The position numbers were made by a program, and so were the translations under genes. 64,000 nucleotides of DNA from Malacoraja senta (taxonomy: Eukaryota), in the NCBI GenBank assembly GCA_038087875.1, contig CM075993.1, forward strand, positions 11,968,001 through 12,032,000, read 5' to 3'. The notes beneath the pieces are model-generated. The model was not told the origin of the DNA and made no database searches. It worked only from the letters and a program-made list of their open reading frames with translations. Each line of letters begins with the position of its first letter. Positions within the stretch are counted from its first letter, which is position 1. Below are positions 3,475 through 55,370 of this stretch, piece after piece.

Positions 3475-3870
3475 TGTAGTAAGGAGCTACAGACCGAGTC
3501 TAAACCGAAGATAGACACAAAAAGCTGGAGTAACTCAGTGGGTCCGGCAGCATCTTTGGAGAGAAGGAGTAGGTGACTTTTCGGGTCGAGACCCTTCTTC
3601 AGACCGAGAGTCAGGGGAAAGGGAAAAGAGAGATATAGACGGTGATGTAGAGAGATATAAAAAAAATAATGAAAGATATGCAAAAAAATAACAATAATAA
3701 AGGAAACACCATTATTAGCTGTGGTCTAGGTGAGAACAAGTACAGACAAAGACTCATCAAGGCGACTTTGAAGCTGGTATGACGGATGGGGGAGGGATGG
3801 AGAGAGAGGGAATGGAGGGGTTTACTTGAGGTTAGATAAATCAATATTCATACCACTGGGTGGTAATCTG
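3475..3870 (-). mobile_element. Penelope-like element 3' end / pseudo-LTR
   Basis: Ends ...LPPSGMNIDLSN like the GIY-YIG ORF C-terminus at 8130-8160; carries hammerhead-like core. Confidence 0.8.
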
Positions 3871-4289
3871 GGTTGTAAGATACTGGATATATCCCTGATG
3901 TCACACTTCCTGCAAGAGCAACATACAACTACCATACTCTTTATCGCACTCAAGGACAAAAAAAGAGACAAAGAGAAAGATAGAGCAAAGAGAAAACATG
4001 ACACAGTCTTCAAAGGGCACTTTGTGAAGGATGAACGCTTTCTTTATTCCCCAATGTTTTGTCCTCTGGCAGTTCAGTTCTGATGCACAAGTCAAAATAA
4101 AAAGAGAGCGATATGACAGTCAGAATTTCTTTCCCCTTGATCTTCAACATAAAGCCAGACCACAATCTTCATTTAGAACCAAACCTTGACAATCAATTAA
4201 GACAAAAATAGAAATCAGCAACGTGAATAATTGATACCTATGGTTCGGGCTAGGCTTGACCATTTGCAAATAAGAGGCTAAGTACTTAC

Positions 4290-4443
4290 CCGGAACTTCA
4301 CAGTAATCACAATTGATTTTTTTCAGATATGATGTGGACGTTAAGTCAAATGTTCTCATGTTCACTTCTGTACCCAGCTGCGACACGCTGAAAACAAGCA
4401 GGGGCTTCTCCTGGCTGTCTTGCCGTGAAAGTTCAATGACAAC
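4290..4443 (-). CDS. VPS13C: VPS13C exon (154 nt): VVIELSRQDSQEKPLLVFSVSQLGTEVNMRTFDLTSTSYLKKINCDYCEVP
   Basis: tag|GTT...CCG G|gtaagt. Confidence 0.95.
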
Positions 4444-5747
4444 CTACCAACAAGATACCAAAGGAGTGCCCATTACTGAATGTCTGTAACACAAATCACT
4501 CACTCGCTACCTCAGGTGCACTCTTCTCAGAGTCTCTTGAGCAACACATGGAGATCGCAAAGTTAAGTCATTTAAAATCAAAGAACCGTAAATGCTGGAG
4601 ATCTGAAATAAAAGCAAAAAGCATTCAAGGTACTCAGCAGGTTCAGATAGCGTCTTAGAACAGAACGAGTTCACATTTCAGGACCATGACATTTCATCAG
4701 AGGTTAAAAAGCAAGAAAACAAACTGTGTCCTGCATCTCGGTGTTGAATTGATTCGAGTTATAAAAACAGCACGGAAACAAACGCTTCTGCCCACTGAGG
4801 CCACACCAACCATCAATCACCCATTCACACCAGTCCTGTGTTATCCCACATTCACATCCACTTCCTATACATTGGGGGCAACTTAAAGAGTCCAATTCAT
4901 AAAATACATGATACATTAAATTAAAGTGATGAGTGGAAAGGCTTGGGGGATGGGCAAAGATTGGGAAAGGGGGGTGGGGGGGGGAAGGGAGTCAGTCTCA
5001 GTTTACCCCACTACAGAAGTGGAGGGGGGGGGGGGAGTTGTAATGTTTGATAGCCACAGGGAACCCACATATTTTTGGATGTGAGAGCTAACTCACTGAG
5101 GAAACCCATGCGGTCAGAGATAACATGTAAACTCCATGCAGACAGCACCGAAGGTCAGGATCGAACCCAGATCTCTAGAGCTGTGAGGCAGTAACTTTAC
5201 CCACTGCACGACCCTGCGTGTTCCAGCATGGCCTTTTGGTTGGATTTTTCCCTCTTCTCTAACTGCACTGGTTCACCTACCAACCTGCTGGCATTGAAAT
5301 CTAGACAACCTCGTCCTTGTCCCTGCACAGACCCTCTCTCTTTGTTCCTCCAATACTCTCCCTCTCAGCAGCACATCTGTTTTCTCACTTTACATGTCCA
5401 GGTAAAGCTTTGCTGACCTGAAACATTAACTGCCTGACCTGCCAATTCTCATAATAATTTTATGTTTTAATTTGCAAAGTTATTGCCATAATTTTAGTTT
5501 AGTTTATTGTTACATGTACAGAGGTACAGTGAAAAGGTTTTGTTGCATGCTAACCAGTTCACAGTAAGCCTGTACATCAAATGGCCATGATTCTCACACA
5601 CAAGGCTATGGTCAGGTTCTTTCAATATTAGTACTTTTATTACAACCTACAAGCTGGGCAAAGTCAACAACACAATAAGATAATCAAACTGTCACTGATA
5701 TGGTCCTAATATGGATTAGAGTGTTTCAAAACAGGGAGAGTTTTCAC

Positions 5748-6746
5748 TTTAGTATTAGATATACAGTACAGAAACATACCCTTTGGCCCACTGAGTCCAC
5801 ACCGACCAGCAATCCCGCACATTAGCACTATCCTACACACACAAGGGACAATTGACATTTATACCAAGCCAATTAATCTACAAATGTGTAGGAAGGAAAT
5901 GCAGATGTTGGTTAACACCAAAGATAGACACAAATTGTTGGAGTAACTCAGTGGGATGGGTAACATCTCTGGATAGAAGTAATGGGAGACGCTTCGGGTT
6001 GAGACCCTTCTTCAGATAGAATTAACCTCCAAATCTGTACGTCTTTAGAGTGCGGGAGAAAACTAAAGATCTCGGAGAAAACCCCGCAGTCACGGGGAGA
6101 ATATACAAACTCCATACAAACAGCATCAGTAGTAGGGATTGAACCCGGGCCTCTAGCGCTGTGAGGCAGCAACTCATTGTGTGCAGTTTTGGTCTCTTAA
6201 TTTGAGGAAGGACATTCTTGCTATTGAGGGAGCGCAGCGAGGTTCACCAGGTTAATTCCCGGGATGGCGGGACTGACATATGATGAACAAACTGATCGAT
6301 TGGACTTGTATTTAGAAGGATGAGAGGGGATCTTATGGAAACATATAATATTATTAAGGGATTGGAGAGGCTAGATGCAGGAAAAATGTTCCCGATGTTG
6401 GGGGAGTCCAGAACCAGGGGTCACAGTTTAAGAATAAGGGGTAGGCCATTTAGGACTGAGATGAGGAAAACCCTTTTCACCGTCAGAGTTGTGAATCTGT
6501 CGAATTCTCTGCCATAGAAGGCAGTGGAGGCCAATTCACTGAATATCTTCTGGAGAGAGTTAGATATAACTCTCAGGGCTAATGGAATGAAGGGATATGG
6601 GGAGAAAGCGGGAACGGGGTACTGATTTTGGATGATCAGCCATGATTATATTGAATGGCGGTGCTGGCTCAAAGGGCGGAATGGCCGACTCCTGCACCTA
6701 TTGTCGATGTTTCTATGTTTCTAACTCTACCGCTGTGCCACCGTGC
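5748..6746 (-). mobile_element. V-SINE interrupted by a mini-PLE (5885-6019) and a CR1 (6176-6722)
   Basis: SINE sequence resumes after each insertion; AACTC repeated on both sides of the CR1. Confidence 0.8.
6176..6722 (+). mobile_element. CR1 LINE, 5'-truncated
   Basis: RGDLMETYNIIKGL...RTRGHSLRI; 3' tail TTTCTATG. Confidence 0.9.
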
Positions 6747-7150
6747 GAGATTGGATAGATTTGGATAGTTTTCTCTGGAATGTCGGTGGCTGAGTGGAGA
6801 CTTGATAAAAGTATGTAATATTATGAGAGGCAATGATAGGGTAAGAAAGACGGAACCTTTTTTCCCGGGGTGTAAATGTCTAATACTAGAGGGCATAGCA
6901 ATAAAGTGAGAGGGGGAAAGTGTAATGGAGATGTGAGGGGAAAGTTTTATTTACACAGAGAGTAGCGGGGGACTGGAACACTTTGCTGGTTGAGGAAGAT
7001 ATGATAGTGGCATTTCAGAGCCTTTTAATAGGCACATGGAAGTACAGGGATATGGATCATATGCAGGCAGATGAGATCAGTTTAACCAGGCATCATGCTC
7101 AGCGCAAACATTGTGGGCCGAAGGGCCTGTTCCTCTGCTGTACTGTTCTA
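6747..7150 (+). mobile_element. older CR1 LINE 3' end
   Basis: ORF2 C-terminal remnant and 3' UTR ending GGGCCGAAGGGCCTGTT. Confidence 0.75.
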
Positions 7151-7151
7151 T

Positions 7152-8490
7152 AGATAGACACAAAAAGCTGGAGTAACTCAGTGGGACAGGAAGCATCTCT
7201 GGAGAGAAGGAATGGGTGATGTTTCGGGTCGAGACCCTTCTTCAGACTGGTTAGGGTTAAGGGTAACGAGAGATATACTATAAAAGGTGATGTGGAGAAA
7301 TATAGAACAATGAATGAAAGATATGCAAAAAAGGAAACAGGCCATTGTAAGCTGTTTGTAGGGTGAAAATGAGAAGCTAGTGTAACTTGGGTGGGGGAGG
7401 GATAGAGAGAGAGAGCCGGAGCTACCTGAAGTGAGAGAAATGAAAATTCATACCACTGGGCTGTAAGCTGCCCAAGCAAAATATGAGATGCTGTTCCTCC
7501 AATTTGCGTTTCGCCTCACTGTGACAATGGAGGAGACTGAGGACAGAAAGGTCAGTGTGGGAATGGGAAGGGAAATTAAAGTGTCCAGCACCGGTCGCCC
7601 AGTCTATGTTAGGTCGCGGAATTTCCGCCACCTCCAACGGGATCCCACCACTAGCCATATTTTCCCATCTCCACCCCTTTCCGCCTTCCGCAGAGACCGT
7701 TCCCTCCGCAACTCCCTGGTTAACTCATCCCTTCTCACTCAGTCCACCCCTCCCAAGGTACCTTCCCCTGCAATCGCAGAAGATGCAACACCTGTCGCTA
7801 TACCTCCTCCCTCGACTGTCCAGGGACCCACACAGTACTTTCAGGTTAGGCAGAGGTTCACTTGCACGTCCTCCAACCACATCTACTGTATCCATTGTTC
7901 AAGATGTGGACTCTTATACATCGGCGAGACCAAATGCAGACTGGGCAGTCGTTTCGCGGAACACCTTCGCTCAGCCCACGTGAACCAACCTGATCTCCCG
8001 GTTGCTAAACACTTTAATTCTCCTTCCTATTCGTACACAAACCTTTCTGTCCTCTGTCTCCTCCATTGTCAGAGTGAGGCTAAATGCAAATTGGAGGAAC
8101 AGCATCTCATATTTTGCTTGGGCAGCTTACAGCCCAGTGGTATGAATATTGATTTCTCTCACTTCAGCCCATTCAGTCCAGCATTCCCTCTCTCTATCTC
8201 TCCCCCACCCAAGTCACACTAGCTTCTCATTTTCATCCTACAAACAGCTAACAATGGCCTGTTTCCTTTATCATCATTACTTTTTTGCATATCTTTCATT
8301 CATTGTTCTTTATCTCTCCACATCACCGTCTATATCTCTCGTTTCCCTTATCCCTAACCAGTCTGAAGAAGGGTCTCGACCCGAAACATCACCCATTCCT
8401 TCTCTCCAGAGATGCTGCCTGTCCCGCTGAGTTACTCCAGCTTTTTGTGTCTATCTTTGGTTTAAACCAGCATCTGCAGTTTCTTCTTAC
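7152..8490 (+). mobile_element. Penelope-like element (GIY-YIG endonuclease, Neptune-like) with inverted 5' pseudo-LTR
   Basis: FTCTSSNHIYCIHCSRCGLLYIGETKCRLGSRFAEHLRS...VAKHFN is a PLE GIY-YIG with CCHH residues; 7152-7594 is the reverse complement of 7998-8456. Confidence 0.9.
8361..8393 (+). ncRNA. minimal hammerhead ribozyme-like motif in PLE pseudo-LTR
   Basis: CUGAAGA-A-GGGU(CUCG)ACCC-GAAA-CAUC. Confidence 0.55.
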
Positions 8491-8692
8491 ACTGTTCTGC
8501 ATGGGACTAGCATGGATGGACAAAAAATGGCCTGGATGGACAAAAAATGCTGTACACATCTACGACTCAGTCAAAACCAGTCCAAACTCTAAATTAGAAA
8601 AACCATCATAATGAAAAAATACATGTTTTCCAAAAGGAGAATTATTGCTAAAGAATACAAACCAATAGGGAACATATTAAAATTATTTCTAC

Positions 8693-8844
8693 CTCCTTAA
8701 CTTCAAACTTCAGCTGGAGATCTGTGAGCTCCTCGCTTGGAGTTTCGTTGTCTTCTTGCTGGGCTTCATCAGCCACTGCAGCTCGACTTGGCACGACAAC
8801 CCCTTCCCTTGCATCACTGAATTCCTCTTCAGATCCAAGTGAAC
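8693..8844 (-). CDS. VPS13C: VPS13C exon (152 nt) with FFAT-like motif: SLGSEEEFSDAREGVVVPSRAAVADEAQQEDNETPSEELTDLQLKFEVKE
   Basis: tag|GT TCA...GAG|gtaga; EEL..L.LKFE.KE motif. Confidence 0.92.
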
Positions 8845-9883
8845 CTAAGGAATACCAAGTCAACAGGATACTGCAAATGTATTGAACTGGCTTCCTTTCA
8901 TTGACACTATACAGCGTGTATTATTGATGCTTTCTCAAACTTGGCAAAAGTACATACAATTGCCTGCTGCAGGGATAGAATCAGCAAAGCACTCACTGGA
9001 TCTATTCCTGTACCCCAACCAATATTAAGTCAAGTCAATCAGCGGGCCAGGACCATCCCAGCAAAATGGCCCAACTCGCCCACCACAGATCGATGATGGA
9101 GGAGATTTCGTCTGCTGCGGAACGATAATGGAGGCCCAGTATGGGGAGAAGGCAGGAACGGGGGTACTGATTGGAGATGATCAGCCATGATCACATTGAA
9201 TGACGGTGCTGGCTCGAAGGGCCGAGTGGCCTACTCCTGCACCTATTGTCTATTGGTAGGCCTGGCTCAAACACCGCACTCCAAATCGGCCCCGGAAACA
9301 GGAAAAGAATCGGTGCCAGTGAGGGGGCTGGGGTCTTCCACCGTGACTGCACCTCACACCCACCTCTCCACATTTCATCAAGGAGGCCAAGCTGAGGACC
9401 AGCAAGCCCACAGCTGAGCCGGGCTCCACCATGAGGGAAAACCCACGTGCTTTAATCATTTTGCTTTTAAATACACATTGTTGTTTTAGCAACATTGAAT
9501 TGTATGCATTTTCATTCATTTTTTAAGTAATCTTTGAATAGTTTTAAGTTGTTTCTGTTAAGCAGGCACCCAAGCTCAGTTAAAGAGTTCTTCGTAGCCT
9601 TTAACAGACACGCTATCGAAGTCTATCAGGGCAGTTGGGGAATGGGATTCCAGCAAGTTATTTTATAAATTGTTCATCTCATGTTTGCACTCTTGCAGGA
9701 AGAACAGAATGTTAAAGTCCAGCCCAAGAGAACTTCCTCAATCTTTTATGCTCAGAGATGCAAATATGCATCACTGAAGGGCAAAGATTGCAAATACTTA
9801 GTGGAGTAATCAGCGGATAACTTAGTTGGACCAATGGGCCTGTTTCCACACTGTATAACTCCAATGAACATCGCACAGCAATA

Positions 9884-10065
9884 TGTTAAAGAAGGAACTG
9901 CAGATGCTGGAAAATCGAAGGTAGACAAAAATGCTGGAGAAACTCAGCAGGTGAGGCAGCATCTATGGACAGTCTGAAGAAAGGTTTCGACCCGAAACGT
10001 CGCCTATTTCCTTCGCTCCATAGATGCTGCCTCACCCACTGAGTTTCTCCAGCATTTTTGTCTAC
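9884..10065 (+). mobile_element. miniature fold-back PLE derivative with 15-bp TSD
   Basis: TSD CATCGCACAGCAATA at 9869-9883 and 10066-10080; 50-bp inverted arms around a hammerhead core. Confidence 0.85.
9972..10004 (+). ncRNA. minimal hammerhead ribozyme-like motif
   Basis: CUGAAGA-A-AGGU(UUCG)ACCC-GAAACGUC. Confidence 0.55.
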
Positions 10066-10420
10066 CATCGCACAGCAATACTTTCTTTCATGCATCAATA
10101 TGTGTTTGCTCCAATTTAACTGGAGCGATGTTTAATACTCTTATCTTAACCCGAAAACATTTAAAAAATCTCCATTTCCAATTTTCTCATTTTCACAAGC
10201 TTTTCACTGTACCTTGGAAAGACTTTCACTGTACCACTGTACATGTGACTATAACTAAACTAAACATAAACAATCCTGTGCATAAGTGGAATTAAAAGTG
10301 ATCTCCAGTCTGTAATGTAAAGCTTTGCGATATTCATGTAGTCCTAATTAATGCTGAGTGAAATAGCTTCTGCAGCTTGTGCCACAAGAGCCCAGATGCA
10401 TAGCTGGTTTCATAGCATCC

Positions 10421-10555
10421 GAGTCTGAAGAAGGGTCTCGACCGGAAACGTCACCAATTCCTTCTATCCACAGATGCTGCCTGTCACACTGTGTTACTCC
10501 AGCATTTTGTGACTATCTTTGGTTTAAACTAACATCTGCAATTCCTTCCTACAAT
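10421..10555 (+). mobile_element. solo PLE pseudo-LTR with hammerhead core
   Basis: GTCTGAAGAAGGGTCTCGACCGGAAACGTCACC followed by the conserved PLE terminus. Confidence 0.75.
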
Positions 10556-10892
10556 ACATCACTGTCATAACTTTACATTTAGATGTACAGGATCCTGTTT
10601 TACAACATTCTTCACCCTTGACAGTCACAGTAATGCAGCATAGAAACAGATTCTTTGGCCCAACTAGTCCATGCCCCATCTAACAAGTCACATTTACCCA
10701 CATTTTCCTCATTTAGAGAAGGCGGGAACGGGGTACTGATTGGGGATGATCAGCCATGATCACATTGAATGGCGGTGCTGGCTCGAAGGGCCAAATGGCC
10801 TACTCCTGCACCTATTGTCTATTGTCTATTTCTCTCTGAACCTTTCCTATCCATGCACCAGTCTAACTGCCTCAATTACCTTCTCTGGCAAA

Positions 10893-11170
10893 ATGTGCAG
10901 GAAGGAACTGCAGATACTGGTGAACACCAAACATAGACACAAAATGCTGGAGTAACTCGGCGGGTTAGGGAACATCTCTGGAGAAAAGGAATAGGTGATG
11001 TTTGGGGTCGCGACCCTGCTTCAGACAGTCAAGGAAGAGGGAAAATAGAGGTATGGAAAGGTACAGAACAGATCAGAGCCCACAATGGTCCATTGTTGCC
11101 TGTGGGGGAGGTGATAACGAAGGGATAAATGCGGGTTGAGTCTGAACTGGGAGGTCTGGAACGGGATTTG
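10893..11170 (-). mobile_element. PLE pseudo-LTR fragment
   Basis: Same terminus (GGAAGGAACTGCAGAT...GAGTAACTC) with degenerate hammerhead core. Confidence 0.7.
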
Positions 11171-11375
11171 GAATGGCCAAGGCAGAAGATGGAACCGCAG
11201 GAAAGCCCCGAGAAAACAACACCTGGCTGTGGTAGCGAGTCCGGGTTTAAACTTGGTTGTAGAGCCGGACAGCAGGAGGAATCACAATGGGGAGCTTGTT
11301 CCACAGACCCACCACCGTCTCAGTACTCCTTTCCAGTTTTACCACCTAATAATGCAAGGTACTGTGAGAATCAAA

Positions 11376-11532
11376 GGTAGACAAAAGTGCTGGAGAAACT
11401 CAGCCTGAAGAAGGATTTCGGCCCGAAAGGTTGGCTATTTCCTTCGCTCCATAGATGCTGCTGCACCCGCTGAGTTTCTCCAGCACTTTTGTCTACCTTC
11501 GATTTTCCAGCATCTGCAGTTCCTTCTTAAAC
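11376..11532 (+). mobile_element. miniature fold-back PLE derivative with 15-bp TSD
   Basis: TSD ACTGTGAGAATCAAA at 11361-11375 and 11533-11547; perfect 29-bp inverted arms. Confidence 0.85.
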
Positions 11533-11706
11533 ACTGTGAGAATCAAACTAATTTTACTGCTTTTGTGCTTAGATCATTTAAGGAAGGTACTTAAACTAAA
11601 ATTTAGATTTGAAGGATGCATTGCATTACTTAAAAAAACAAAGCAAATTACATCTGTTATACAGCGTTAAAGGGATCTTGGGTCAAAACAGATACTAGAC
11701 ACTTAC

Positions 11707-11785
11707 TTGATTCTTCCAATGATGCTGATGAACCAATTACTACGAGACGTGGGTCAAACACCTCCACTGGTCTTACACGTACCAT
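11707..11785 (-). CDS. VPS13C: VPS13C exon (79 nt): MVRVRPVEVFDPRLVVIGSSASLEES
   Basis: tag|ATG...TCA A|gtaagt; poorly conserved linker, but supplies the phase 0 to 1 transition the flanking exons require. Confidence 0.8.
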
Positions 11786-12989: not shown

Positions 12990-13074
12990 CTAATGTTTCA
13001 GGTTGCAGGCACTTGTATATATTTGAATGCCAGCCATACAAATATATACAAGTGCCTGCAACCTGAAACATTAG
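12990..13074. repeat. perfect 36-bp inverted repeat, 13-nt loop
   Basis: 12990-13025 is the exact reverse complement of 13039-13074. Confidence 0.95.
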
Positions 13075-13219
13075 CCCTGCTTCTTTCTGCAGATGTGCCT
13101 GGGCCAGGTGAGAATTTCCAGCATTTTTTGCTTTCAATGTACAGGAAAAATATTTATCCCTGGTAACTATTGTGATTGCGCAATGAGCAAAACTGCAATC
13201 ACCGTGCCAATGGTGGAAC

Positions 13220-13417
13220 GGTGGCACAGCAGTAGAGAAGCTGTCTTACAGCGTTTGAGACCCAGGTTCAATCCTGACTATGGGTGCTGTCTGTACGGAG
13301 TTTGTACGTTCTCCCTGACACTATGTGGGTTTTCTCCAAGATCGGGGATCACTGTTCGGTGCGGACTCGGTCGACCGAAGGACCTGTTTCTGCGTTGTAT
13401 CTCTAAACTAAACTAAA
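13220..13417 (+). mobile_element. V-SINE (internally deleted)
   Basis: tRNA-like head, V-domain, (CTAAA)n tail. Confidence 0.8.
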
Positions 13418-13560
13418 TTGCCAGCAGACAAGAATAGCTTCCCTCAGCGTTCTGCAGAACTCCATTGAAGAGTCATGCCATTTGAAGTGTACATTTTCCA
13501 ACACCACAACATGGCGAGTATCAGAGAGAATGCAGTACTAGTATCAGGCATCACACTGAC

Positions 13561-13696: not shown

Positions 13697-13769
13697 CTGA
13701 AAAAGAATCACTTCAGTGAAACAATCCACGACATTCAAAATCCCATTACTATCATTGATTGGACATTCT

Positions 13770-45695: not shown

Positions 45696-47356
45696 CGAGG
45701 AATAGATCAGGTAAATGCACTGAGTTTTTTAATCTGGAAGAGGGGAATCAAGAACCAGAGGACATAGGTTTAAGGTGAAGGTGGGAGGGGGGGGAGATTT
45801 AATAGAAACCCCATGGGCATATTTTTACACAAAGGGTGTTCGGTATATGGAACGAATTGCCAGAAGAGGTAGTTAAGGCTGATACTATCAAAATGTTTAA
45901 AAAACATTTGGACAAGTGCGTGGATAGGATAGGTTTAGAAGGATATGGATCAAACGCAGGCAGGTGGGACTTGTGTAGATGGGGCATGTTGGTTGGTATG
46001 GGCAAGTTGAGCTGAAGGGCCTATTTTCATGCTATATGACTATGACAGCGCAACAATAACTGAATGATAAGTTCATCAAACATCACGGGTACTCAGAACA
46101 ATAAGTAAACCATTTAAAACACTGCCGTCAAAGGAAAGCATCAGGCAAAGATGGAATGAAGGAGGTTATTGGCTCAGAACCCCACACACATTGGGTTGAG
46201 CTGAGGGGTGTGACAGTTGAACTATATCAGAGCGATTTCCTTTAAATGATACACACACGCCCGGATAGAGCTGCCAGCGATGGCGGTGGAGGCAGATGCA
46301 AGTGGCATTTAAGAAGCTTTTGGATAGGCACGTGGATATGCGGCGAATGGAGGAACATGAATCACATGTAGGTTGAGGAGATTAGTTGGCATCAAGTTCG
46401 GCACAGATATTGTGGGTGAAGGGTTTGTTCCTGTGCTAGGTTGGCCACACTGCCCAATGTGCCAAGTCTATCTTTGTATGAACACTATGCAGCTAATAAG
46501 ACCCTCACTGGCATGTGCACAGGCATCCCCTGAACCAAAAGGGCCACGTCCATGGATGTTAACGGACTGAAGCAATGCAAGGTGCCCAAGATACAGCACC
46601 ATGCTCTAGCTAGAGTGCCACTGGCAATTTACAACAACATCACTTACACGAGATAAATCCCAAAACTCAGACTGTGCAAAGGGATAGCGGTCAGTGAGGA
46701 GGTTGAGCCGGCGGTCGAGGTCGAGGAAGGGGTCGGCGGGCAAGGTCGAGGGTGGCGGCAGTGGTCGAGGGCAGGCAACGTGGGTGCCGGAGGTCAGACG
46801 CGCCACCGAGAACAAAGGAGTCGCTCTTTATACGGCGACTCTTTGCATGGTTTGGGAATGCACGGTGACTTGTGCCTTTGTGACTATAAAGTATCATTCA
46901 TTCATAAAGTATCATTCATTCATAAAGTTATTCATTCATTCATTCATGAATGTGGTCGGCCAAAGGGCTCATTCCAGTGTTGTTCAACCCTAAGGCCTCT
47001 CTTTACTTCCCAACGGATATAGGATTGGAAGTGGCGATTAGCAATTGTGGGACAAAGAAAAGACAGTCCAAAATAACACAAATTTTAGGAACCTATTCCC
47101 CATCCTGGATAAATAGACCGATGTTTGCAGCTTTAATAGTAGCAGTTGAAATTATTACATTAAATTTTTATCACAGTTCCTTGGTTTGTTTCACTTTGTA
47201 CAAAAAAATATTTTCAATACCAGAAAAACTACAACATTGGACATCTAACCTTAAATTTATTTTTCACCAGTCATTAACCATAAACTAGTAAATCTTTAAT
47301 AAAGTTCTGGATGCTTTAATCATCAAACAGAATGAGGACGTTGAATACGATCCTAC

Positions 47357-47484
47357 CTGTGGCTTAGTCATCTCTATGTCTATGCTCTGCACTTCCATGT
47401 CCAGGTTTATTTTCGGCGAGTTCAATACAGCTTCAGCAGAAGGATTGATGTGAAGTTTGGCCGATGCTGATATTGGTCTGAAAA
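47357..47484 (-). CDS. VPS13C: VPS13C exon (128 nt): IFRPISASAKLHINPSAEAVLNSPKINLDMEVQSIDIEMTKPQ
   Basis: cag|TT TTC...CAG|gtagg. Confidence 0.95.
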
Positions 47485-47633
47485 CTGAATGGTGAATTAC
47501 ATTAAATATCCTGCATCATAAAACCAAAGCAACATAGCGGCATTTGCATGCATTTGCATAAACCATGAAAATTGCCTGGTCTATTGAGGAGAATAAACTT
47601 TGCTGCAGCATGATATGGATCAGTCCCAGGTGA

Positions 47634-47913
47634 GGGCGGCATGGTGGCTCAGAGGTAGAGTTACTGCTTACAGCGCCAGAGACCCAGACTACGGGTGCAG
47701 TCTGTACGGAGGTTTACTTTCGTGGATTTCCTCTGGGGAGCTCTGCTTTCCTCTCACATGCCAAAGACATACAGGTATGTAGGCTAATTGGCTTGGTATA
47801 ATCGTAAATTGTCTCTAGTGTGTGTAAGAGAGTGCTGAAGTACGGGGATCGCTGGTCATCGCAGACTTGGTGGGCCGAAGGGCCTGTGTCCGTGCTGTAT
47901 TTCTAAACTAAAC
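47634..47913 (+). mobile_element. V-SINE (degenerate)
   Basis: Head and tail match other copies. Confidence 0.75.
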
Positions 47914-47964
47914 TTAAGTAGGTCAGACAGATAGAGCAGCTGGAGTTAGAATTTAATCATATTT

Positions 47965-49300
47965 ATGAAGGAACTGCAGATGCGGGTTAAACTGAAGATA
48001 GTTGGAGTAACTCAGCGGGACAGGCAGCATCTCTGGAGAGAAGGAATGGGTGCCGTTTCGGAAAGAGACCCTTCTTCAGACTAGTCAGGGGATAGGGAAA
48101 TGAGAGATACAGACAGTGATGTAGAGAGATATAGAACAAATGAGTGAATGAAAGATATGCAAAAAAGTAACGATGATAAAGGAGACATGCCATTGTTAGC
48201 TGTTTACGTGAGAATGGGAGCCTGGTGCGACGAGTGGGGGAGGTATAGGGAGAGAGGGAATGCCAGGGTTAAGAAGTTAGAGAAGTCAATATTCATGCCA
48301 CTGGGTTGTGAGCTGCCCAAGCAAAATATGAGATGATGTTCCTTGAATTTGCGATTGGCCTCACTCTGACAATGGAGGAGGCCTAGGACAGAAAGGTCAG
48401 TGTGGGTACACAAAAATGCTGGAGAAACTCAGCGGGTGCAGCAGCATCTATGGAGCGAAGGAAATAGGTAACGTTTCGGGCCGAAACCCTTCTTCAGTGT
48501 GGGAATGGGAAGTGGAATTAAAGTGTTTGGCAACCGGGAGATCAGGTAGGTCCATGTGGACTGAACGAAGGTGTTCAGCGAAACGATCGCCCAGTCTACG
48601 TTTGGTCTCGCCGATGTTTAAGAGTCCACATCTTGTACAAAGAATACAGTAGATGAGGTTAGAGAAGGTGCAAGTGAACCTCTGCCTATCCTGAAAGGAA
48701 TGTCGGGGTCCCTGGACAGAGTCAAGGGAGGAGGTATAGGGACAGATGTTGCGTCTCCTGCAGTTGCAGGGAAAGGTACCTGGGGAGGGGGTGGTTTGGG
48801 TGGGAAGGGATGAGTGAACCAGGGAGTCGTGGAGGGAACGGCTTCTGCGGAAGGTGGAAATGGGTGGAGATGGGAAGATGTGACTAGTGTTGGGATCCCA
48901 TTGGAGGTGGTGAAAATGGCGGAGGATCTTGTGTTGTATGCGACGGCTGATGGGGTGGAAGATAAGGACTAGAGAGACTCTGTCCCTGTTGCGACTAGAA
49001 GAGGGGAACAAGGGCAGAGCTGCGGGTTATCAAGAAGATATGTGTGACAGCCTCATCTATGAAGGAAGAGGGGAACCCCCGTTCCCTATAGAATGAGGAC
49101 ATCTCGGATGTCTTGGTATGGAACACCTCATCTTAGGCGCAGATGCGGCGTAACCGGAAGAATTGGGAGTAGGGGATAGAGACTTTGCAGGAGGCAGAGT
49201 GGGAAGAAGTGACTTTGAGATAATTGTGGGAGTCAGTGGGATTGTAATAGACGTCAGTCGATAGTCTATCTCCCGTGATGGAGACGGTGAGATCGACTGA
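47965..49300 (-). mobile_element. Penelope-like element 3' part (RT thumb remnant, Cys-rich linker, GIY-YIG, pseudo-LTR)
   Basis: PGTFPCNC...C; NLIYCILCTRCGLLNIGETKRRLGDRFAEHLRS; nested mini-PLE at 48407-48493. Confidence 0.9.
48467..48497 (-). ncRNA. minimal hammerhead ribozyme-like motif (sense to VPS13C pre-mRNA)
   Basis: CUGAAGA-A-GGGU(UUCG)GCCC-GAAACGUU. Confidence 0.55.
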
Positions 49301-49944
49301 AATTTAATCAAGTGATGCGCAGTAGGCAGAGTGATGATGGTAGCTCATACATTGCAAATGCTGAGGCTCTGGAGAGTACTGAGGAACAGAGAGAACTGTG
49401 GGCAAGCTCAATGAAGGTGACAGCTTATGGTGGTTAAGACCGCAAACACTATCCGCCTTCATTAATTAGGGCACAGAATAAAATAGAAAGAACGTTATGG
49501 ATGAAATATTGATTCGGCCACAGCTAGAATATTGCGTGACCACGCTACAAATAGGAGGTGATTGCACTGGAAAGGGTGCAGAGAGATTCACTGACATATC
49601 ACCTGGGACAAAGCATTTTGGTCATAAGGAGAGACTGGATGGGCTAGGACCGTTTCCCTTGGAGTGGAGGAGGCTGAAGGGGAACCCGTTCGAGGTTTGC
49701 AAAATTGAGAAGCATTAAGAGGATAGATCTTTGCATTGGAACATTCAATCATATGGAATCGGTTTTTAACCTATTTTGAGATGATATATATGCCCCTCCC
49801 CTCATTATTTCTGCTGTTATTTTCCCCACGTGCATGGACAGGTAATGTTTAGTGGGACATGTATCAAATGCGGGCAAAGAGTACTGGCTTAGATTGGGTA
49901 TCTTGGTCAGCATGGACAAGTTGGGCCGAAGGGTCTCTCCCCCT

Positions 49945-50275
49945 ACCAACCCTCACGGTCCCTCAGATCCACATCAGCTGGTCTCCTCTCCACTCCGAAT
50001 TCAAACCTCTGCACTTTTGGAGGCAGAGCCTTCTCCAGGGCAGCTCCCAGGCTCTGGAATTCCCTCCCACAACCGGTCCGAAATTCTGAGTCCCTCACCA
50101 TCTTCCAGTCCCGCCTCAAGACCCATCTCTTCACCTCTGCATACCCTTAGTCCCATGTTCCCCTGCTCTATTACTGCTCTATTTTGTTTTGTTTATTCCT
50201 GACTCTCAATTGTAAAGCGACTTTGAGTCCTGAAAAGCGCTATATAAAATAAATCTATTATTATTATTATTATTA
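49945..50275 (+). mobile_element. L2 LINE 3' end
   Basis: GGRAFSRAAPRLWNSLP...FQSRLKTHLF; TGTAAAGCGACTTTGAG...AAAGCGCTATATAA + (TAT)n. Confidence 0.85.
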
Positions 50276-50423
50276 CATGCTATATTACCCCATGACTGGG
50301 ATTTTCTATGGGTGGAAACAAGAGAGTAAACAAACATTTTAAATAACAGACACCCAGTCTCAATAGGCATCTTTCATTGCAAAAATAATAAAGTCATTTG
50401 GCAGTAACAGTTTCAATACTTAC

Positions 50424-50481
50424 TATATTGATAATTTTTGGGTTCATGAGCACCTGAAGCGATCCCCCCTTTCAGCTGCAC
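50424..50481 (-). CDS. VPS13C: VPS13C exon (58 nt): VQLKGGIASGAHEPKNYQY
   Basis: cag|GTG...TAT A|gtaagt; phase 0 to 1. Confidence 0.9.
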
Positions 50482-50767
50482 CTGTCAAATTCAAGAGTGC
50501 AAACCATGAAACAAGACAATAATACACTTCCTACAATGTATTTTCCCAATAAACCCAGATTAACTGAGCTGGCTACGCATTGCGATGTATTCTGGTAAAA
50601 TGTCAGTGCTCTTGGACTGGACCAGGCCTCCTTCTGTCAAATCCATGTGGTAACTGCAATGCTTCCCTATCCTGCATTGAATTAAATCACATACAAGCAT
50701 CTTCCTATTGCAAAATGAAGTGTACAGCCTGCAACAACAAGACAACCCAAAAGGCAATGGCCTTGAA

Positions 50768-50982
50768 TATCACAAGGCAATTGTAGACAAAGAACTTCTT
50801 AAATGTTGACACTAATGCCGTGTGGAACATAATGGGCGAGAGGTGCATGCTCATCGAGAACAAGGTGGAAGGTGAACAAGGTAGGCACACTTCCATCTGG
50901 AAGGAGAAACCAGAAGTACCCATCTTTATGGGGTTGCTTTGCTATCCAAATGAATAATTGGCATATTGATGACTCCTTGTGA
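50768..50982 (+). repeat. probable source copy of the 215-bp duplicate at 38071-38285
   Basis: Continuous with non-repeat-looking intron sequence on its left. Confidence 0.9.
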
Positions 50983-51333
50983 GCTTCAGAACCTTCTAAG
51001 AACATAGAACACAGCAGAGGAACAGGCCCTTCAGAAACAATGTCTGTGCTGAACATGATGCTAAGACAAACTCTTATCTGCCCGTATATAATGCATATCC
51101 CTCCATTCCCTGCATATCCATATGCCGACCCATAAGTCTCTTAAATGCCACGATCATATCTGCCCCAACCACCACCCCAGCAGCGGGTTCCTGGCACTCA
51201 CCAACCTTTATGTGTAAAATAAACCTGCCCCGCACATCTTCCTAAAACTTTGCCCCACTCACCTTCAAAGCCCTGCCCTCTAGTATTTAATATTTCCATT
51301 TTGGGAAAAGGTTCTGACTGTCTACCCTATCTA

Positions 51334-51377
51334 CAGTGCCCTCCATAATGTTTGGGACAAAGACCCATCATTTATTT
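51334..51377 (+). mobile_element. Tc1-like left TIR fragment
   Basis: TA-CAGTGCCCTCCATAATGTTTGGGACAAAGACCCATCAT, near reverse complement of 31813-31851. Confidence 0.8.
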
Positions 51378-51571
51378 CTATCAGGTTTTCCCACAACATC
51401 TGGAGAAAACAAGCCAATTCTGTCCAATTCTTCCTGTAACTGATCCAGGCATCATTCTGGTAAGTCTCCTCTGCGCTCTCTTCAAAGCCTCCTCATCCTT
51501 CCTGTAATAGGGCGACCAGAACTGCATGCAATACTCCAAATGCAGCCTAATCAACGTCCTATTCAAAGCAA

Positions 51572-52078
51572 TATTCTTGCTATTGAGGGAGTGCAGCGTA
51601 GGTTCACGAGGTTAATTCCTGGGATGGCGGGACTGCCATATGCTGAGAGAATGGAGCGGCTGTGCTTGTATACTCTGGAATTTAGAAGGATGAGAGGGAA
51701 TCTTATTGAAACATATAAGATTATTAAGGGTTTGGACACGCTAGAGGCAAGAAACATGTTCCCAATGTTGGGGGAGTCCAGAACCAGGGGCTATAGTTTA
51801 AGAATAAGTGGTAAGCCAGTTAGAACGGAGATGAGGAAAAACTTTTTCACCCAGAGAGTTGTGAGTGTGTGGAATTCTCTGCCTCAGAGGACGGTGGAGG
51901 CTGGTTCTCTGGATGATTTCAAGAGAGAGTTAGATAGAGCTCTTAGGGATAGCGGAGTTAAGGGATATGGAGAGAAGGCAGGAATGGGGTATAGATTGTG
52001 CTTGATCAGCCATGATCACATTGAATGGTGGTGCTGGCTCGAAGGGCTGAATGGCCTACTCCTGCACCTATTGTCTAT
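51572..52078 (+). mobile_element. CR1 LINE 3' end
   Basis: ILAIEGVQRRFTRLIPG...GYGEKAG; 3' UTR. Confidence 0.9.
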
Positions 52079-52642
52079 AGAGCTGTATCATGACTTGCTA
52101 GACTTTATGACAGAAGAAGCACATTACATTCATTGATGCACATGTCCCCACCTTGGAAGCAATGGGCAGAGCTAATTAGACTCCAACCTGGAACAAGTCA
52201 CAGAAGGCAGTGGAGGCCAATTCACTGGATGTATTCAAGAGAGTTAGATATAGCTCTTAGGGCTAATGGAATCAAGGGATATGGGGAGAAAGCAGGAACG
52301 GGGTACTTCTTCTTGTGTATGGCGTGCACAGCCTAAAGTTGTAGGACAACTAGTTCTATTTCGATCTTATTTGATTGCGCACGCCAGGTTGATTGCATAT
52401 GTCGAAACAGGGCAGACCACGTGAAGGTTGCAATCTCCCACCCCGAACTGGGTACTGATTCTGGATGATCAGCCATAATCATTTGAATGGCAGTGCTGAC
52501 TCGAAGGGCTGAATGGCCTACTCCTGCACCTATTTTCTATGTTTCCAATGCCCCACCCCCAACCATCTATTCCACCATCATCATCATTAACCATCTTCCA
52601 CAACATTATAGGTACTGTATAAAGTTTTACAGAAAAACATAC

Positions 52643-52723
52643 CAAGATTTGTTCTCTTGAGTCTTGGCAACATAACAGACTGTTCACATTCCAGTAGGCA
52701 GAAAGGCAATCTAAGCGGACAAG
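52643..52723 (-). CDS. VPS13C: VPS13C exon (81 nt): LVRLDCLSAYWNVNSLLCCQDSREQIL
   Basis: cag|CTT...TTG|gtatg; LSAYWN motif. Confidence 0.95.
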
Positions 52724-52954
52724 CTGAAGGAGGGGAAAAAAACACCAGGAAAATTAGTTTTGTATTTATAATCTAAAGAGCAAATTGACTATTTCACAAA
52801 ATCGCTATTTCAAATATTTGAAACCACACAAAAAAAAACAAATAATCCCCAAATAATCCGTATTCTGCCAATATCACTGACCTGACAAGTTAACAGTTCC
52901 TGCTGATCTGCTGAATGTTTCCACACTTCTGGTTATATTTTTGATTTAGTCTTA

Positions 52955-53810
52955 GTGTCATCGAGTGATAGAGTGTGGAAACAGGCCCTTCGGTGCAACT
53001 TGCCCACACCAGCCGACATGTCCCAGCTCCACTACGCATTTGGTCCATATCCCAAAAAACCTCTATCAATGTACCTGTCAAAATGTTTCAGCCTCAACTA
53101 CCTCCTCTGGCAGCTCGTTCCATACACCACCACCCTTTGAGTGAACAAGTTACTCCTCAGATTCCTATTAAATCTTTTCCTCTTCACCTTGAACCTATGT
53201 CCTCTGGTCCTTGATTCACCTACTCTAAGCAAGAGACTGTGCATCTTCCTGATCTATTCCTCTCATGATTTTATACACTTCTATAAGATCACCCCTCATC
53301 CTCTTGTGCTCCAAGGAACAGAGCTACAGCCTACTCAACCTCTCCCGATAGCTCACACCCTCTATGCTGGCAACATCATCGTAAATTTACTTTGTACCCT
53401 TTCCAGCTTGACAACATCTTTCCTAGCACGGTGCCCAGAACTGAGCACAATACTCTAAATGCTGCCTCACCAACATCACATACAACTGCAACATGACCTC
53501 CCTACTATACTCAATACCTTGACGGATGAAGGTCAATGTACCTAAAGCCTTTTGGACCACCCGATCCACCTGCGACTCCACCTTCAAGGATTCTTCACCT
53601 GCACTCGTGGATCGCTCTGCTCTTCAACAATCCCCAGGGCCCAACCATTCACTGTGTAGGTCCTGCCCATGTTAGACTTCCCAAAATGCAACACGTCCTA
53701 CTTCTCTGTATTAAATTCCATCAACCATTCCTCAGCCCACCTGGCCAATCGATCCAGATCCTGCTGCGATTTTGCCCAAATATCTTCACTATCTCCAAAA
53801 CCTCCCACTT
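52955..53810 (-). mobile_element. CR1 LINE, degenerate
   Basis: Reverse-strand ORF2 C-terminal remnants and 3' UTR. Confidence 0.8.
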
Positions 53811-53844
53811 CTGTATCATTTCCTCCATCTGTACCTTTCTTCAC

Positions 53845-54700
53845 CTGATGGAGATGAGTCAGAGTATAGAAGTGAGATCGACGGATTGACCAAATGGTGC
53901 CAGCACAATAACCTGGCTCTCAACACCAGCAAAACCAAGGAACTGATTTTGGACTTCGGAAGGGGTAGGATGGGGACCCAGAGTCCCGTTTATATCAACA
54001 GGTTGATGGTGGAAAGGGTCAAGAACTTCAAATTCCTGGGCATGCATATTTCCGTAGATCTCTCCTGGTCCCAGAACACTGATTCAATCATAAAGTAAGC
54101 GCATCAGCGCCTCTACTTCCTGAGAAGATTACGGAGAGTCGGTACGTCAAGGAGGACTCTTTTGAACTTCTACAGGTGCACAGTAGAGAGCATGCTGACC
54201 GGTTGCATAGTGGCTTGGTTCGGCAACTTGAGCGCCCTGGAGCGGAAAAGGCTGCAAAAAGTTGTAAACACTGCCCAGTCCACCATCGGCTCTGACCTCC
54301 TTACCATCGAGGGGATCTATCGCAGGCGCTGCCTCAAAAAGGCTGGCAGCATCATCAAGGACCCACACCATCCTGGCCATACACTCATCTCTCCGCTGCC
54401 ATCAGGTAGAAGGTACAGGAGCCTGAAATCTGCAACATCCAGGTTCAGGAACAGCTACTTCCCCACAGCCATCAGACTATTAAACACAACTTCAAACAAA
54501 CTATGAACTATAACAGCCTATTGCACTTTATCCATGTATTTATGTGTGTATATATATATATATTCTATGGTATATGGTCACACTGATCTGATCTGATCTG
54601 TATTTAAGCCTAAAACATTCTGTCGTGTTGCATCAAGCAAGAATTTCATTGTCCTATCTGGGATACATGACAATAAACTCTCTTGACTCTTGACTTGACT
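53845..54700 (+). mobile_element. Rex1/Babar LINE 3' part
   Basis: WCQHNNLALNTSKTKEL..DF; FYRCTVES.LT.CI.AWFG; DPHHPGH...LPSGRRY; (GACTT)n tail. Confidence 0.9.
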
Positions 54701-55370
54701 ATTATTTTTATACTATACATTTTTGAATTAGTTTAATACATTTTGTGTGCATGTCCTCAAATGTTTCATTTGTATTGCAGCGACAATCATGAGTCAATGC
54801 TCGTCAGTAATTCACCCAACAATGGAAACATATTACTCTCACAACACCTTTGGCAATTTTGAGCTGTCTTAAATACTCTATACCACGGAGAAAAATCAGA
54901 CAGCCTACTCAATAAAGAGTCACATCTTATCACGACACTCTTAGCGACTTTACGATGGTCTTTCCTTAGCTTTTGCAATCTTTTTAAAAGTGGGCGGTAA
55001 GACTAACAAACAACAATCCAGCTTTTACTAAAAAATAAACGCATGCACAAGTTCAGCATCATAGCCTTAGTATTATCTTACAGTATACAAACAAAAATAG
55101 CATTTGTGTTTTTTTTCCCCTTAAAAAAAACCCATCTCTAAAGTCTACACAACAGTCTGAAAAAGTGTCTCGACCCGAAACGTCACCCATCCCTTCTCTC
55201 CAGAGATGCTGCCTGTCCTGCTGAGTTACTCCAGCCTTTGCGTCTCTCTGGAGAACATGGACAGGTGTCGTTCCAGATCGGGATCCTTTCTTTTATGTTA
55301 TACCTCAAGTGCACAGGAGTCCCAAAATTAGAGTGGAGCATCAGGCTTATGACTAATGATGATCAAGTAC

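What the first reader, a model, noticed from the sequence alone, without database searches (positions are those of the whole stretch)
3573..55188. About 20 minimal hammerhead-ribozyme cores carried by Penelope-like termini throughout the VPS13C introns
Seen: the motif CTGAAGA-A-GGGT(CTCG/TTCG)(A/G)CCC-GAAAC-GT(C/T) recurs, variably decayed. Plus-strand copies: ~8361, 9972, 10423, 11404, 11964, 17073, 21156, 41148, 42310, 42478, 55156. Minus-strand copies: ~3573, 5986, 7216, 10994, 22320, 42188, 42961, 48050, 48467. The motif has both hammerhead boxes (CUGANGA, GAAA), a 4-bp stem II, a GUC/GUU cleavage triplet, and a palindromic ACGU in place of helix III. Stem II covaries: GGGU/ACCC, GGGU/GCCC and UGGU/ACCA (42310). 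Established: PLE pseudo-LTRs carry minimal type I hammerheads whose palindromic helix III is proposed to act as a dimer, and an extra nucleotide after A9 occurs in a natural viroid hammerhead. Inference: this is a high-copy ribozyme-bearing PLE family, and the minus-strand copies are transcribed within the VPS13C pre-mRNA. Caveat: helix I looks only 2-3 bp long.
Basis: partly seen in the sequence, partly recalled or inferred. Interest (0 to 1): 0.72.

Follow-up and report, generated by a model that had tools for sequence, protein, structure and literature searches.

The report
Dead Penelope retrotransposon ends with hammerheads
These are decayed end pieces of a known kind of jumping gene (Penelope-like) in the introns of a fish gene, likely of a ray or skate; they carry an already described tiny self-cutting RNA motif that is likely inactive here, and their shared sharp start point may mark where the element's RNA begins.

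Summary
Observation confirmed: all 20 cores lie within 3 nt of the stated places (18 matches at up to 3 mismatches, 0 in 100 shuffles). They sit in pseudo-LTRs of a Neptune-type Penelope-like element (RT thumb, Cx4CxxC linker, C-terminal GIY-YIG, inverted arms, 35-nt tail, 8-15-bp TSDs), between exons of minus-strand VPS13C. The motif fits the published PLE minimal-hammerhead consensus (Cervera and De la Pena 2014), whose extra base after A9 is a standard feature. None of 20 copies keeps every feature. Private changes hit the core as often as the flank (5.3% vs 5.8%), G12 decays by CpG, stem II covariation is not significant, and orientation is unbiased (9 sense, 11 antisense), so cleavage of VPS13C pre-mRNA is unlikely. 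One lead: 12 of 20 copies, and thousands of contigs in three DNA runs, start 1-4 nt before CUGA, not at the cleavage site, often after an extra G. This would fit run-off cDNA from a capped, uncleaved RNA; untested. The scan already noted this family and its sharp start on other genomes. New member of a known kind; low interest.

The parts
3575..3602 (-). Minimal hammerhead core; boxes and stem II intact, helix I 3 bp, 15.2/16.2 mismatch (A.G); long pLTR to about 3870, tail end about 3475
5988..6015 (-). Core with A15.1>G, helix I lost; unit starts 1-2 nt before C3, tail end about 5887
7152..8495 (.). Compound PLE insertion: inverted 5'-truncated copy (7594 to 7152, minus, short 3' end) head-to-head with a direct copy (7590-8495, plus, tail end); 8-bp TSD at 7142 and 8491
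7218..7245 (-). Core of the inverted arm; only defect G16.2>A (shared with 8363)
7617..8165 (+). Frameshifted PLE ORF end: Cx4CxxC linker and GIY-YIG endonuclease with CxxC and two later His
   Evidence: (Pfam GIY-YIG E 0.0015, below cut-off)
8363..8390 (+). Reference core (C3 = 8363, H17 = 8390, N1.1 = 8391); G16.2>A. 5' hotspot 8359-8362; 3' ends at 8457 and 8492
9884..10066 (.). Fold-back insertion, subfamily B: core-less inverted arm with tail plus direct unit with short end; 15-bp TSD (9869, 10066); core 9974-10001 has G10.1>A
10425..10452 (+). Core with C11.1>G; solo unit starting at AGT after an extra G, tail end about 10553
10997..11024 (-). Core with A9>C, G12>C, G16.2>A; long pyrimidine-rich upstream
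11376..11533 (.). Fold-back insertion, subfamily B: short inverted arm plus direct unit with tail; 15-bp TSD (11361, 11533); core 11405-11432 has a stem II mismatch and G.G at 15.2/16.2
11966..11984 (+). Core with the 5' strand and loop of stem II deleted; joined to an inverted arm
17076..17101 (+). Core with 2-nt deletion and G12>A, in a fold-back insertion (16985-17180)
21157..21184 (+). Core with G12>A and a stem II mismatch
22323..22350 (-). Core with boxes intact, stem II 3 of 4 pairs (G10.1-U11.1), helix I 1 bp
23433..23495 (+). Core-less pLTR unit starting 1-3 nt after the cleavage site, 11-bp TSD (23423, 23496): the only fragment that could come from cleaved RNA
41150..41177 (+). Core with A6>C and G12>A, in a fold-back insertion, 3' part interrupted
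42121..42572 (.). Cluster: inverted copy (core 42188-42215, G8>A) head-to-head with a direct tandem 168 nt apart (42312-42339: U10.1-A11.1, G16.2>A; 42480-42507: A14>G)
42963..42990 (-). Core with G5>A and G12>A; 5' extent ambiguous
47962..49297 (-). Longest PLE remnant: RT thumb region, linker, GIY-YIG, then pLTR with core 48052-48079 (U16.1>G, stem II broken) and tail
48405..48497 (-). 93-bp subfamily B unit inserted in the endonuclease frame of that remnant, 10-bp TSD; the only copy with intact boxes, stem II and palindrome, but its helix I 5' strand is lost
55157..55184 (+). Core with G8>A and a stem II mismatch; tail-to-tail with a degenerate minus fragment at 55245-55288
4147..62822 (-). 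Host gene VPS13C, N-terminal exons (frames at about 62.7, 47.4, 41.9, 34.5, 33.7, 29.0, 25.0, 24.7, 13.6, 8.8 and 4.3 kb)

Best explanation
The 20 motifs are decayed, likely inactive copies of the minimal hammerhead carried in the pseudo-LTR of a Neptune-type Penelope-like retrotransposon, and most are short units likely made when the element's reverse transcriptase started inside the uncleaved RNA and ran off its 5' end just before the ribozyme core. Shown: PLE anatomy; two 3' end points 35 nt apart; a 5' end hotspot 1-4 nt before C3; TSDs and inverted arms; neutral decay of the core in genomic copies. Inferred from other PLEs: the two 3' ends are the two internal RT start sites (the 'tail'); the endonuclease cuts both strands so each can prime, which gives fold-back insertions with one short and one tailed end; the master element's ribozyme works weakly, as a dimer or with help from the element's protein. 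Inferred here (about even odds): the 5' hotspot is the capped start of the element's RNA. Consequence: no meaningful cleavage of VPS13C pre-mRNA.
For: PLE identity: ORF remnants 45-52% identical to full-length RT + Cx2-5CxxC + C-terminal GIY-YIG proteins (61 of 63 such proteins have the linker); the window's own linker reads Cx4CxxC; nearest named relatives are ray and skate proteins at 65-73%. Tail: loose 3' ends at 8457 and 8492 (8457 listed for all 4 runs, 8492 for 2 of 4), matching the 30-40-bp tail. Fold-backs with one short and one tailed arm and 15-bp TSDs. Motif fits the published consensus, and helix I of 2-3 bp occurs in many entries of that alignment. Decay: core 10 of 187 cells changed, flank 36 of 624 after dropping 12 of 49 subfamily-diagnostic columns (p = 1.0), CpG sites 20 of 102; among genome contigs G12>A 14.7%, C11.1>T 10.8%, C15.2>T 10.6% of depth. 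Selection on masters only: core vs all flank columns 5.3% vs 11.8%, p = 0.008. 5' hotspot: 12 of 20 window copies; 5,116 of 12,538 partly laid contigs have loose 5' ends at 8359-8362 in run X2, of which 3,155 at 8360-8362; the rows at 8360 and 8361 have AT-rich flanks of low agreement; same peaks in X6 and X13. Uncleaved RNA was the main substrate for the anole PLE in vitro.
Against: No full-length element of this family was found: none of 63 long homologues has the peptide that starts at the ATG 49 nt after C3, and that frame stops at codon 18 in 3 of the 5 tailed subfamily A/C copies translated, so 'the unit is the 5' end of the mRNA' is not shown. No RNA data. The loose ends at 8359 are partly other subfamilies with a long pyrimidine-rich upstream, not true ends; 122 loose-end rows were not shown and the tool says some were not counted, so a minor class starting at the cleavage site is not excluded (one window fragment, 23433, starts 1-3 nt after it, and joints to 8391 occur in 10, 15 and 8 contigs). 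No variant reached 2% at 8363-8370, which could be read as conservation of the CUGAAGA box, though clipping near alignment ends explains it as well. Three copies (3602, 7245, 8363) are one substitution from intact, and chimeric sites between two sense copies are formally possible. The 17-copy test has low power.
Confidence: 0.85

Rival explanations
1. Some sense-strand copies are live ribozymes that cut VPS13C pre-mRNA as dimers and so affect its processing.
For: Nine copies are in the sense of the gene; 3602 and 7245 are one substitution from intact and 48497 has an intact core; dimeric minimal hammerheads showed low but real cleavage in vitro.
Against: 0 of 9 sense copies keep all features; the only close direct tandem (42312/42480) is antisense and both copies are defective; no orientation bias (p = 0.82); helix I probability at most 0.008 in 5 of 5 copies folded, and none of their 5 predicted homodimers shows the double-hammerhead; the published monomer did not cleave and the anole ribozyme needed the element's protein.
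Confidence: 0.04
2. The short units are a separate non-autonomous family (SINE-like or retrozyme-like) with its own start just before the core, copied by the PLE proteins; the hammerhead is selected in that family.
For: The unit is far more abundant than its upstream sequence (depth 3.2 million at 8340-8354, 37.7 million at 8370-8384 in X2); head-to-tail tandems of 99 and 122-133 nt exist (8457 back to 8359 in 31, 34 and 33 contigs); retrozymes are argued to derive from pLTRs, and one chondrichthyan genome has them.
Against: Short and long copies share one sequence in subfamily A; 3' ends follow the PLE two-site pattern; tandems are tens of contigs among hundreds of thousands; known retrozymes have canonical type I hammerheads in tandem arrays, not seen here.
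Confidence: 0.2
3. Same PLE origin, but the 5' hotspot is not a transcription start: it comes from a splice acceptor (CAG|U, as in D. virilis where the intron ends at helix I), from RT stalling or template switching at the hammerhead, or from the endonuclease cutting its own pLTR.
For: Long copies have a pyrimidine tract and AG just before the core (pyrimidine share 0.70-0.80); the D. virilis intron ends at helix I; two window junctions use microhomology (11405, 48497); the anole protein cuts its own ORF-pLTR junction.
Against: No shared upstream exon: flanks at 8360-8362 agree only 0.31-0.33; the consensus letter before 8360 is G in all 3 runs where that row is listed, and 4 of 4 listed joints landing on 8360 end in G, which none of these routes predicts.
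Confidence: 0.4
4. The motif only resembles a hammerhead and has never been catalytic in this family.
For: Helix I is only U-A plus G-C, weaker than the 2-bp G-C helices in the published alignment; no Rfam hit; folding z-scores from -1.2 to +0.5 in 6 of 6; N7 is as conserved as the catalytic bases.
Against: All consensus positions are kept in the majority sequence; subfamily differences fall in loop II, the wobble positions and the flank, in none of 11 core columns (12 of 49 flank columns); the position in the pLTR is the one known for PLE hammerheads.
Confidence: 0.15

Closest known systems
Minimal hammerheads (min-HHR) of metazoan PLE pLTRs, including fish Xena, Poseidon and Neptune (Cervera and De la Pena 2014, PMC4209133)
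   Same: Type I; CUGANGAH box with the extra base; G10.1-C11.1; GAAAN + palindromic 15.2/16.2 + UH; no helix III loop; short helix I; in pLTRs downstream of a GIY-YIG ORF; mostly dispersed single copies. The Acropora Neptune entry also has a 4-bp stem II, a 4-nt loop and a 3-bp helix I.
   Different: No cartilaginous fish appears in that paper's Table S1 or Fig. S3 as read; helix I here is 2 bp (U-A, G-C), at the weak end; density here (20 per 64 kb, decayed copies included) looks far above the 4,000-9,000 per genome reported by descriptor for coelacanth and Xenopus, but the counts are not made the same way.
EN+ PLEs of the Neptune clade (Craig et al. 2021, PMC8557442; Arkhipova et al. 2013, PMC3846280)
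   Same: C-terminal GIY-YIG with CCHH-type residues, CX2-5CxxC linker, 5' truncation, adjacent inverted copy, optional 30-40-bp tail, TSDs of about 8-15 bp.
   Different: No RT-core phylogeny could be made (only the thumb region survives), so Neptune versus Nematis is not formally separated; a sharp 5' start at the hammerhead is not described in the passages read.
Anole Poseidon PAc (Frangieh et al. 2024, PMC11167929)
   Same: Two internal RT start sites that define the tail; both target strands extended; hammerhead near the ORF start; uncleaved RNA as template.
   Different: Other clade; in PAc the ATG is at the start of stem II, here the candidate ATG is 49 nt after C3 and is unconfirmed.
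Non-LTR retrozymes (Cervera and De la Pena 2020, PMC7229834; Li et al. 2026, bioRxiv 10.64898/2026.07.22.740005)
   Same: Short, non-coding, high-copy, type I hammerhead, pLTR-related.
   Different: Retrozymes are tandem arrays with a hammerhead in each unit and give circular RNA; here copies are solo or fold-back, with one direct tandem in the window.

Membership tests
PLE minimal hammerhead | CUGANGAH and GAAAN boxes around stem II with G10.1-C11.1 | tested here: met
   Majority sequence of 17 aligned copies; strict pattern 6 vs 0.02 expected; consensus
PLE minimal hammerhead | Palindromic 15.2/16.2 and NUH site, no helix III loop | tested here: met
   Pairing 15.2/16.2 in 11 of 17; H17 is C or U in 17 of 17; U16.1 in 16 of 17
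PLE minimal hammerhead | Helix I of at least 2-3 bp | tested here: inconclusive
   2 bp in 11 of 17, 3 bp in 1 of those; within the published range but without a G-C-only helix
PLE minimal hammerhead | Covariation within the family | tested here: not met
   35 of 500 shuffles reach the score; one double change in stem II, in one copy; 17 copies only
PLE minimal hammerhead | Location in the pLTR of an RT-EN element | tested here: met
   Cores 8363 and 48079 lie about 200 nt after GIY-YIG ORF ends on the same strand
PLE minimal hammerhead | Self-cleavage as dimer or with protein | not testable with these tools
   Bench assay needed
EN+ Penelope-like element | RT with C-terminal GIY-YIG endonuclease in one ORF | tested here: met
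   Remnants align at 45-52% to full-length RT + GIY-YIG proteins; the RT catalytic core itself is absent from the window
EN+ Penelope-like element | Inverted 5'-truncated copy and optional 30-40-bp tail | tested here: met
   7152-8495, 9884-10066, 11376-11533; 3' ends 8457 and 8492
Neptune clade | CX2-5CxxC linker between RT and EN | tested here: met
   Cx4CxxC at about 7769-7795; one Cys changed in the 48-kb remnant
Neptune clade | Placement in the RT phylogeny (versus Nematis) | not tested
   RT core not present in the window; no reference set assembled
Non-LTR retrozyme | Tandem units each with a complete hammerhead | tested here: not met
   One direct tandem in the window, both cores defective; tandem joints in tens of contigs
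Rfam hammerhead families | Covariance-model match | tested here: not met
   No hammerhead family among 11 matches at E up to 5

The most novel reading that the evidence does not exclude
The element's RNA is capped at the A of an initiator-like TCAGTC, three bases before the hammerhead core. The ribozyme is then the first thing in the transcript and cleavage would act as a decapping switch, while the very numerous 99- and 133-bp genomic units are run-off cDNAs from uncleaved, capped RNA, marked by a cap-derived extra G. Template jumps from that end back to the RT start sites would build the tandem pLTRs. These genomes would then hold a genome-scale in vivo record of both ends of PLE reverse transcription, showing that the ribozyme does not process the insertion template.
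Probability: 0.4. Interest if true: 0.5.

Novelty: new member of a known kind. Interest (0 to 1): 0.25.

Why it matters
As a ribozyme finding it matters little: PLE minimal hammerheads are described, and these copies are decaying like the DNA around them. What could matter is the insertion record. The role of the hammerhead in the PLE cycle is still open. A family with this many short insertions and sharp ends lets one test, from assemblies alone, whether cleaved or uncleaved RNA is copied, whether both strands prime, and how tandem pLTRs arise.

Tried and rejected
Whole genome: none is held for this window, so no genome-wide alignment of copies or covariance model was made; contigs were used through read laying instead. 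Rfam: no hammerhead match. Related loci: 0 in viral contigs; 0 and then 17 in metagenome contigs, none of the 17 with a core upstream, so treated as chance. RNA: no RNA holder listed; all 24 runs are contigs; X18 is flagged probably DNA, so expression, strand and RNA ends were not examined. Consensus folding of the alignment gave only a weak alternative helix (stem II 5' strand with the bases after the cleavage site, -0.62 kcal/mol). An 'anti-ribozyme' helix between the CUGAAGAAGG box and the downstream pyrimidine tract appeared in short folds but passed 0.5 in only 5 of 20 full-length folds; not claimed. One search used helix I columns that were off by one and was redone. The ATG at C3+49 as ORF start: no support among 63 long homologues. 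Look-up of earlier findings by sequence gave nothing. Literature searches for an elasmobranch PLE hammerhead or for the 5' hotspot found no such description; the library lacks most subscription journals, and Repbase and Dfam were not available. A search for 'extra guanine' and one paper (PMC7353768) gave nothing usable; the held supplements of PMC11167929 had no hits for 4 terms, so its Fig. S2 was not seen.

Full report
Observation. The 28-nt motif has 18 matches at up to three mismatches and none in 100 shuffles; 11966 and 17076 are missed because of deletions. A strict minimal-hammerhead pattern has 6 matches against 0.02 expected. A profile from 17 of the 20 copies (11966, 17076 and 41150 were left out of the alignment because of deletions or an interrupted 3' part) finds 33 fragments of the same repeat, 20 with C3 and 13 without, and none in the reversed window. 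Rfam gives no hammerhead family at E up to 5.

Host. Minus-strand frames from 62.8 kb down to 13.4 kb hit Pfam VPS13_N in gene order (9 of 13 exon candidates at E up to 0.1). Three exons were compared with solved structures and human VPS13C was best each time (E 7.6e-19, against 7.5e-12 for VPS13A; 5.7e-19; and 1.3). The copy at 3602 lies past the last exon I placed (human residues 920-973 of a 3,777-residue chain), so its intronic position is inferred. The organism is likely a cartilaginous fish: the nearest named relatives of the endonuclease remnant are ray and skate proteins at 65-73% identity. No whole genome is held.

The element. Cores 8363 (plus) and 48079 (minus) follow the ends of broken ORFs by about 200 nt. 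These remnants hold an RT thumb region (49297-49004), a Cx4CxxC linker and a GIY-YIG domain (Pfam E 0.0015, below the curated cut-off), and align at 45-52% to full-length RT + endonuclease proteins, 61 of 63 of which have such a linker. Craig et al. (PMC8557442; passages) give the linker as the mark of Neptune and Nematis, and list partial tandems, an adjacent inverted copy and a 30-40-bp tail as PLE features. All appear here. 7152-8495 is an inverted plus a direct copy with an 8-bp TSD; 9884-10066 and 11376-11533 are fold-backs with one short and one tailed 3' end and 15-bp TSDs; a 93-bp unit sits inside the 48-kb ORF with a 10-bp TSD; TSDs of 7 bp or more were found for 7 of 17 intervals tried, two of them only 7 bp and possibly chance. 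Contigs from four runs of four studies show loose 3' ends at 8457 (all four runs) and 8492 (listed for two), 35 nt apart, plus 8481 and 8486 inside the tail. Frangieh et al. (PMC11167929; parts 1-2 of 4) showed for the anole PLE that the tail is the stretch between two internal RT start sites and that both target strands are cut and extended. That accounts for the fold-backs; here it is inferred.

The ribozyme motif. Cervera and De la Pena (PMC4209133; parts 1-2 of 4 and supplement parts 1-2 of 3) describe this motif in Xena, Poseidon and Neptune PLEs of fish, with the extra base after position 9, G10.1-C11.1 and palindromic 15.2/16.2 as common traits. Their Acropora Neptune entry has a 4-bp stem II and a 3-bp helix I; no cartilaginous fish is in the table or alignment I read. 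Their monomer did not cleave and dimers cleaved weakly; the anole ribozyme needed the element's protein. The majority sequence here meets the consensus, but helix I is only U-A plus G-C. The claimed covariation fails: 35 of 500 shuffles reach the score, the U-A pair at 10.1/11.1 is in 1 of 17 copies, and G>T at that place is not listed at 2% among contigs, while the partner C>A is 2.8%.

Are the copies alive? None of 20 has boxes, four stem II pairs with G10.1-C11.1, the palindrome and helix I together (17; 3 read). 48497 has the intact core but lost the 5' strand of helix I; 3602, 7245 and 8363 are one change away. Core positions differ from the majority in 10 of 187 cells, all flank columns in 98 of 828 (p = 0.008), but the flank falls to 36 of 624 once 12 of 49 columns with a minor letter in three or more copies are dropped (p = 1.0). 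This is the pattern of selection on the master elements and none on the insertions, though 0 of 11 versus 12 of 49 diagnostic columns is a small sample. CpG sites are changed in 20 of 102 cells. Among contigs of run X2, G12>A is 14.7% of depth, C11.1>T 10.8% and C15.2>T 10.6%; G12 is the general base (PMC6155905; passages). No variant reached 2% at 8363-8370; alignment clipping next to the 5' ends can cause that, so I take it as neither support nor refutation. Nine copies are sense and 11 antisense to VPS13C (p = 0.82). Helix I probability was at most 0.008 in five copies folded. The one close direct tandem (168 nt) is antisense and both cores are defective. Cleavage of the host pre-mRNA is therefore unlikely, though not tested at the bench.

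The sharp 5' start. Twelve of 20 copies lose homology within about 10 nt before C3, most within 5; 42990 is ambiguous and seven run on for 33 to 770 nt. In run X2, 5,116 of 12,538 partly laid contigs have loose 5' ends at 8359-8362; the 8359 class is partly other subfamilies (pyrimidine-rich, median 112 nt), which leaves 3,155 at 8360-8362, with low-agreement flanks of median 189-245 nt. X6 and X13 show the same peaks. The cleavage product start, 8391, is not among the six rows shown; 122 rows were cut and some ends were not counted. One window fragment (23433, 11-bp TSD) starts 1-3 nt after the cleavage site, and opposite-strand joints to 8391 occur in 10, 15 and 8 contigs, but the reference's own mismatch at 8388 could clip alignments there. 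The consensus letter before 8360 is G in X2, X6 and X13, where the AT-rich flank predicts A or T, and 4 of 4 listed joints landing on 8360 end in G, though these may not be independent events. In the window only 2 copies (10425, 17076) show such a G. An extra G marks the 5' junction of full-length, capped L1 insertions (PMC11702581 and PMC2831318; passages). The sequence there resembles an initiator (TCA+1GTC; consensus recalled, not from a call); an initiator-like element was noted in rotifer pLTRs (PMC3846280; passages). I therefore favour, at about even odds, a capped RNA start three bases before the core, with the short units as run-off cDNAs from uncleaved RNA. Head-to-tail joints from 8457, 8481 and 8492 back to 8359-8361 would be template jumps from that end. 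Rivals are a splice acceptor as in D. virilis (PMC2377424; passages), which predicts a shared upstream exon that is not seen, RT stalling, endonuclease cutting, or a separate short family. Against my reading: no RNA data, no full-length element, and the ATG at C3+49 is open through the tail in subfamily B but stops at codon 18 in 3 of 5 tailed A/C copies and matches none of 63 long homologues.

Abundance. The window has one core per 3.2 kb; 378,739, 461,513 and 428,857 contig records were laid on the 421-nt stretch in three runs of three organisms. The tool states that these are not copy numbers. Li et al. (bioRxiv 10.64898/2026.07.22.740005; part 1 of 5 and passages; supplements not seen, and they name the chondrichthyan sampled) report retrozymes and PLEs in one cartilaginous fish. 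The units here are not tandem arrays with intact cores and so fail the retrozyme test (PMC7229834; passages).

Novelty. Searches found no paper on this family or on the 5' hotspot, but repeat libraries were not available and the kind is well described. Earlier notes of this scan report the same family on other genomes, and two mention the sharp start; they are unchecked notes and were seen after my own tests. Verdict: real, a new member of a known kind, fossil in this locus; interest 0.25, carried mostly by the testable 5'-end signature.

Noticed in passing
window 8395-8411 and the same tract in all subfamilies: A pyrimidine tract ending in AG directly before the ATG at C3+49 looks like a splice acceptor, with the base after the cleavage site at branch-point distance; sense copies could act as cryptic acceptors. 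Two predicted ray proteins (P0003, P0020) are host genes fused to this endonuclease.
   Followed up: no
run X2 contigs on window 8335-8428: A 38-nt head-to-tail duplication of the bare core (8397 back to 8360, mostly with one G between) in 10 contigs: a natural close tandem that could be dimer-competent.
   Followed up: no
window 42312-42507: In the antisense tandem, the 5' half of 42312 and the cleavage triplet of 42480 could form one near-complete chimeric site (U-A in place of G10.1-C11.1).
   Followed up: partly
   Followed up: partly
window 12989-13075: Near-perfect 87-nt palindrome, MITE-like; gives sub-threshold Rfam microRNA matches.
   Followed up: no
window 36281-37975 (plus), 43664-45477 (minus), 51444-52136 (plus): LINE reverse-transcriptase remnants (RVT_1 E 4.9e-26 for the first), CR1-like by recall; about 41% of the window is repeated within itself.
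   Followed up: partly
window 53715-54506 (plus): Remnant of another LINE whose C-terminal part hits Pfam ALKBH8_N (PF09004, E 2.1e-7).
   Followed up: no
window 8651-8920 (minus): The VPS13C exon keeps an acidic FFAT-like motif aligned to human residues 874-883 (motif name recalled).
   Followed up: no
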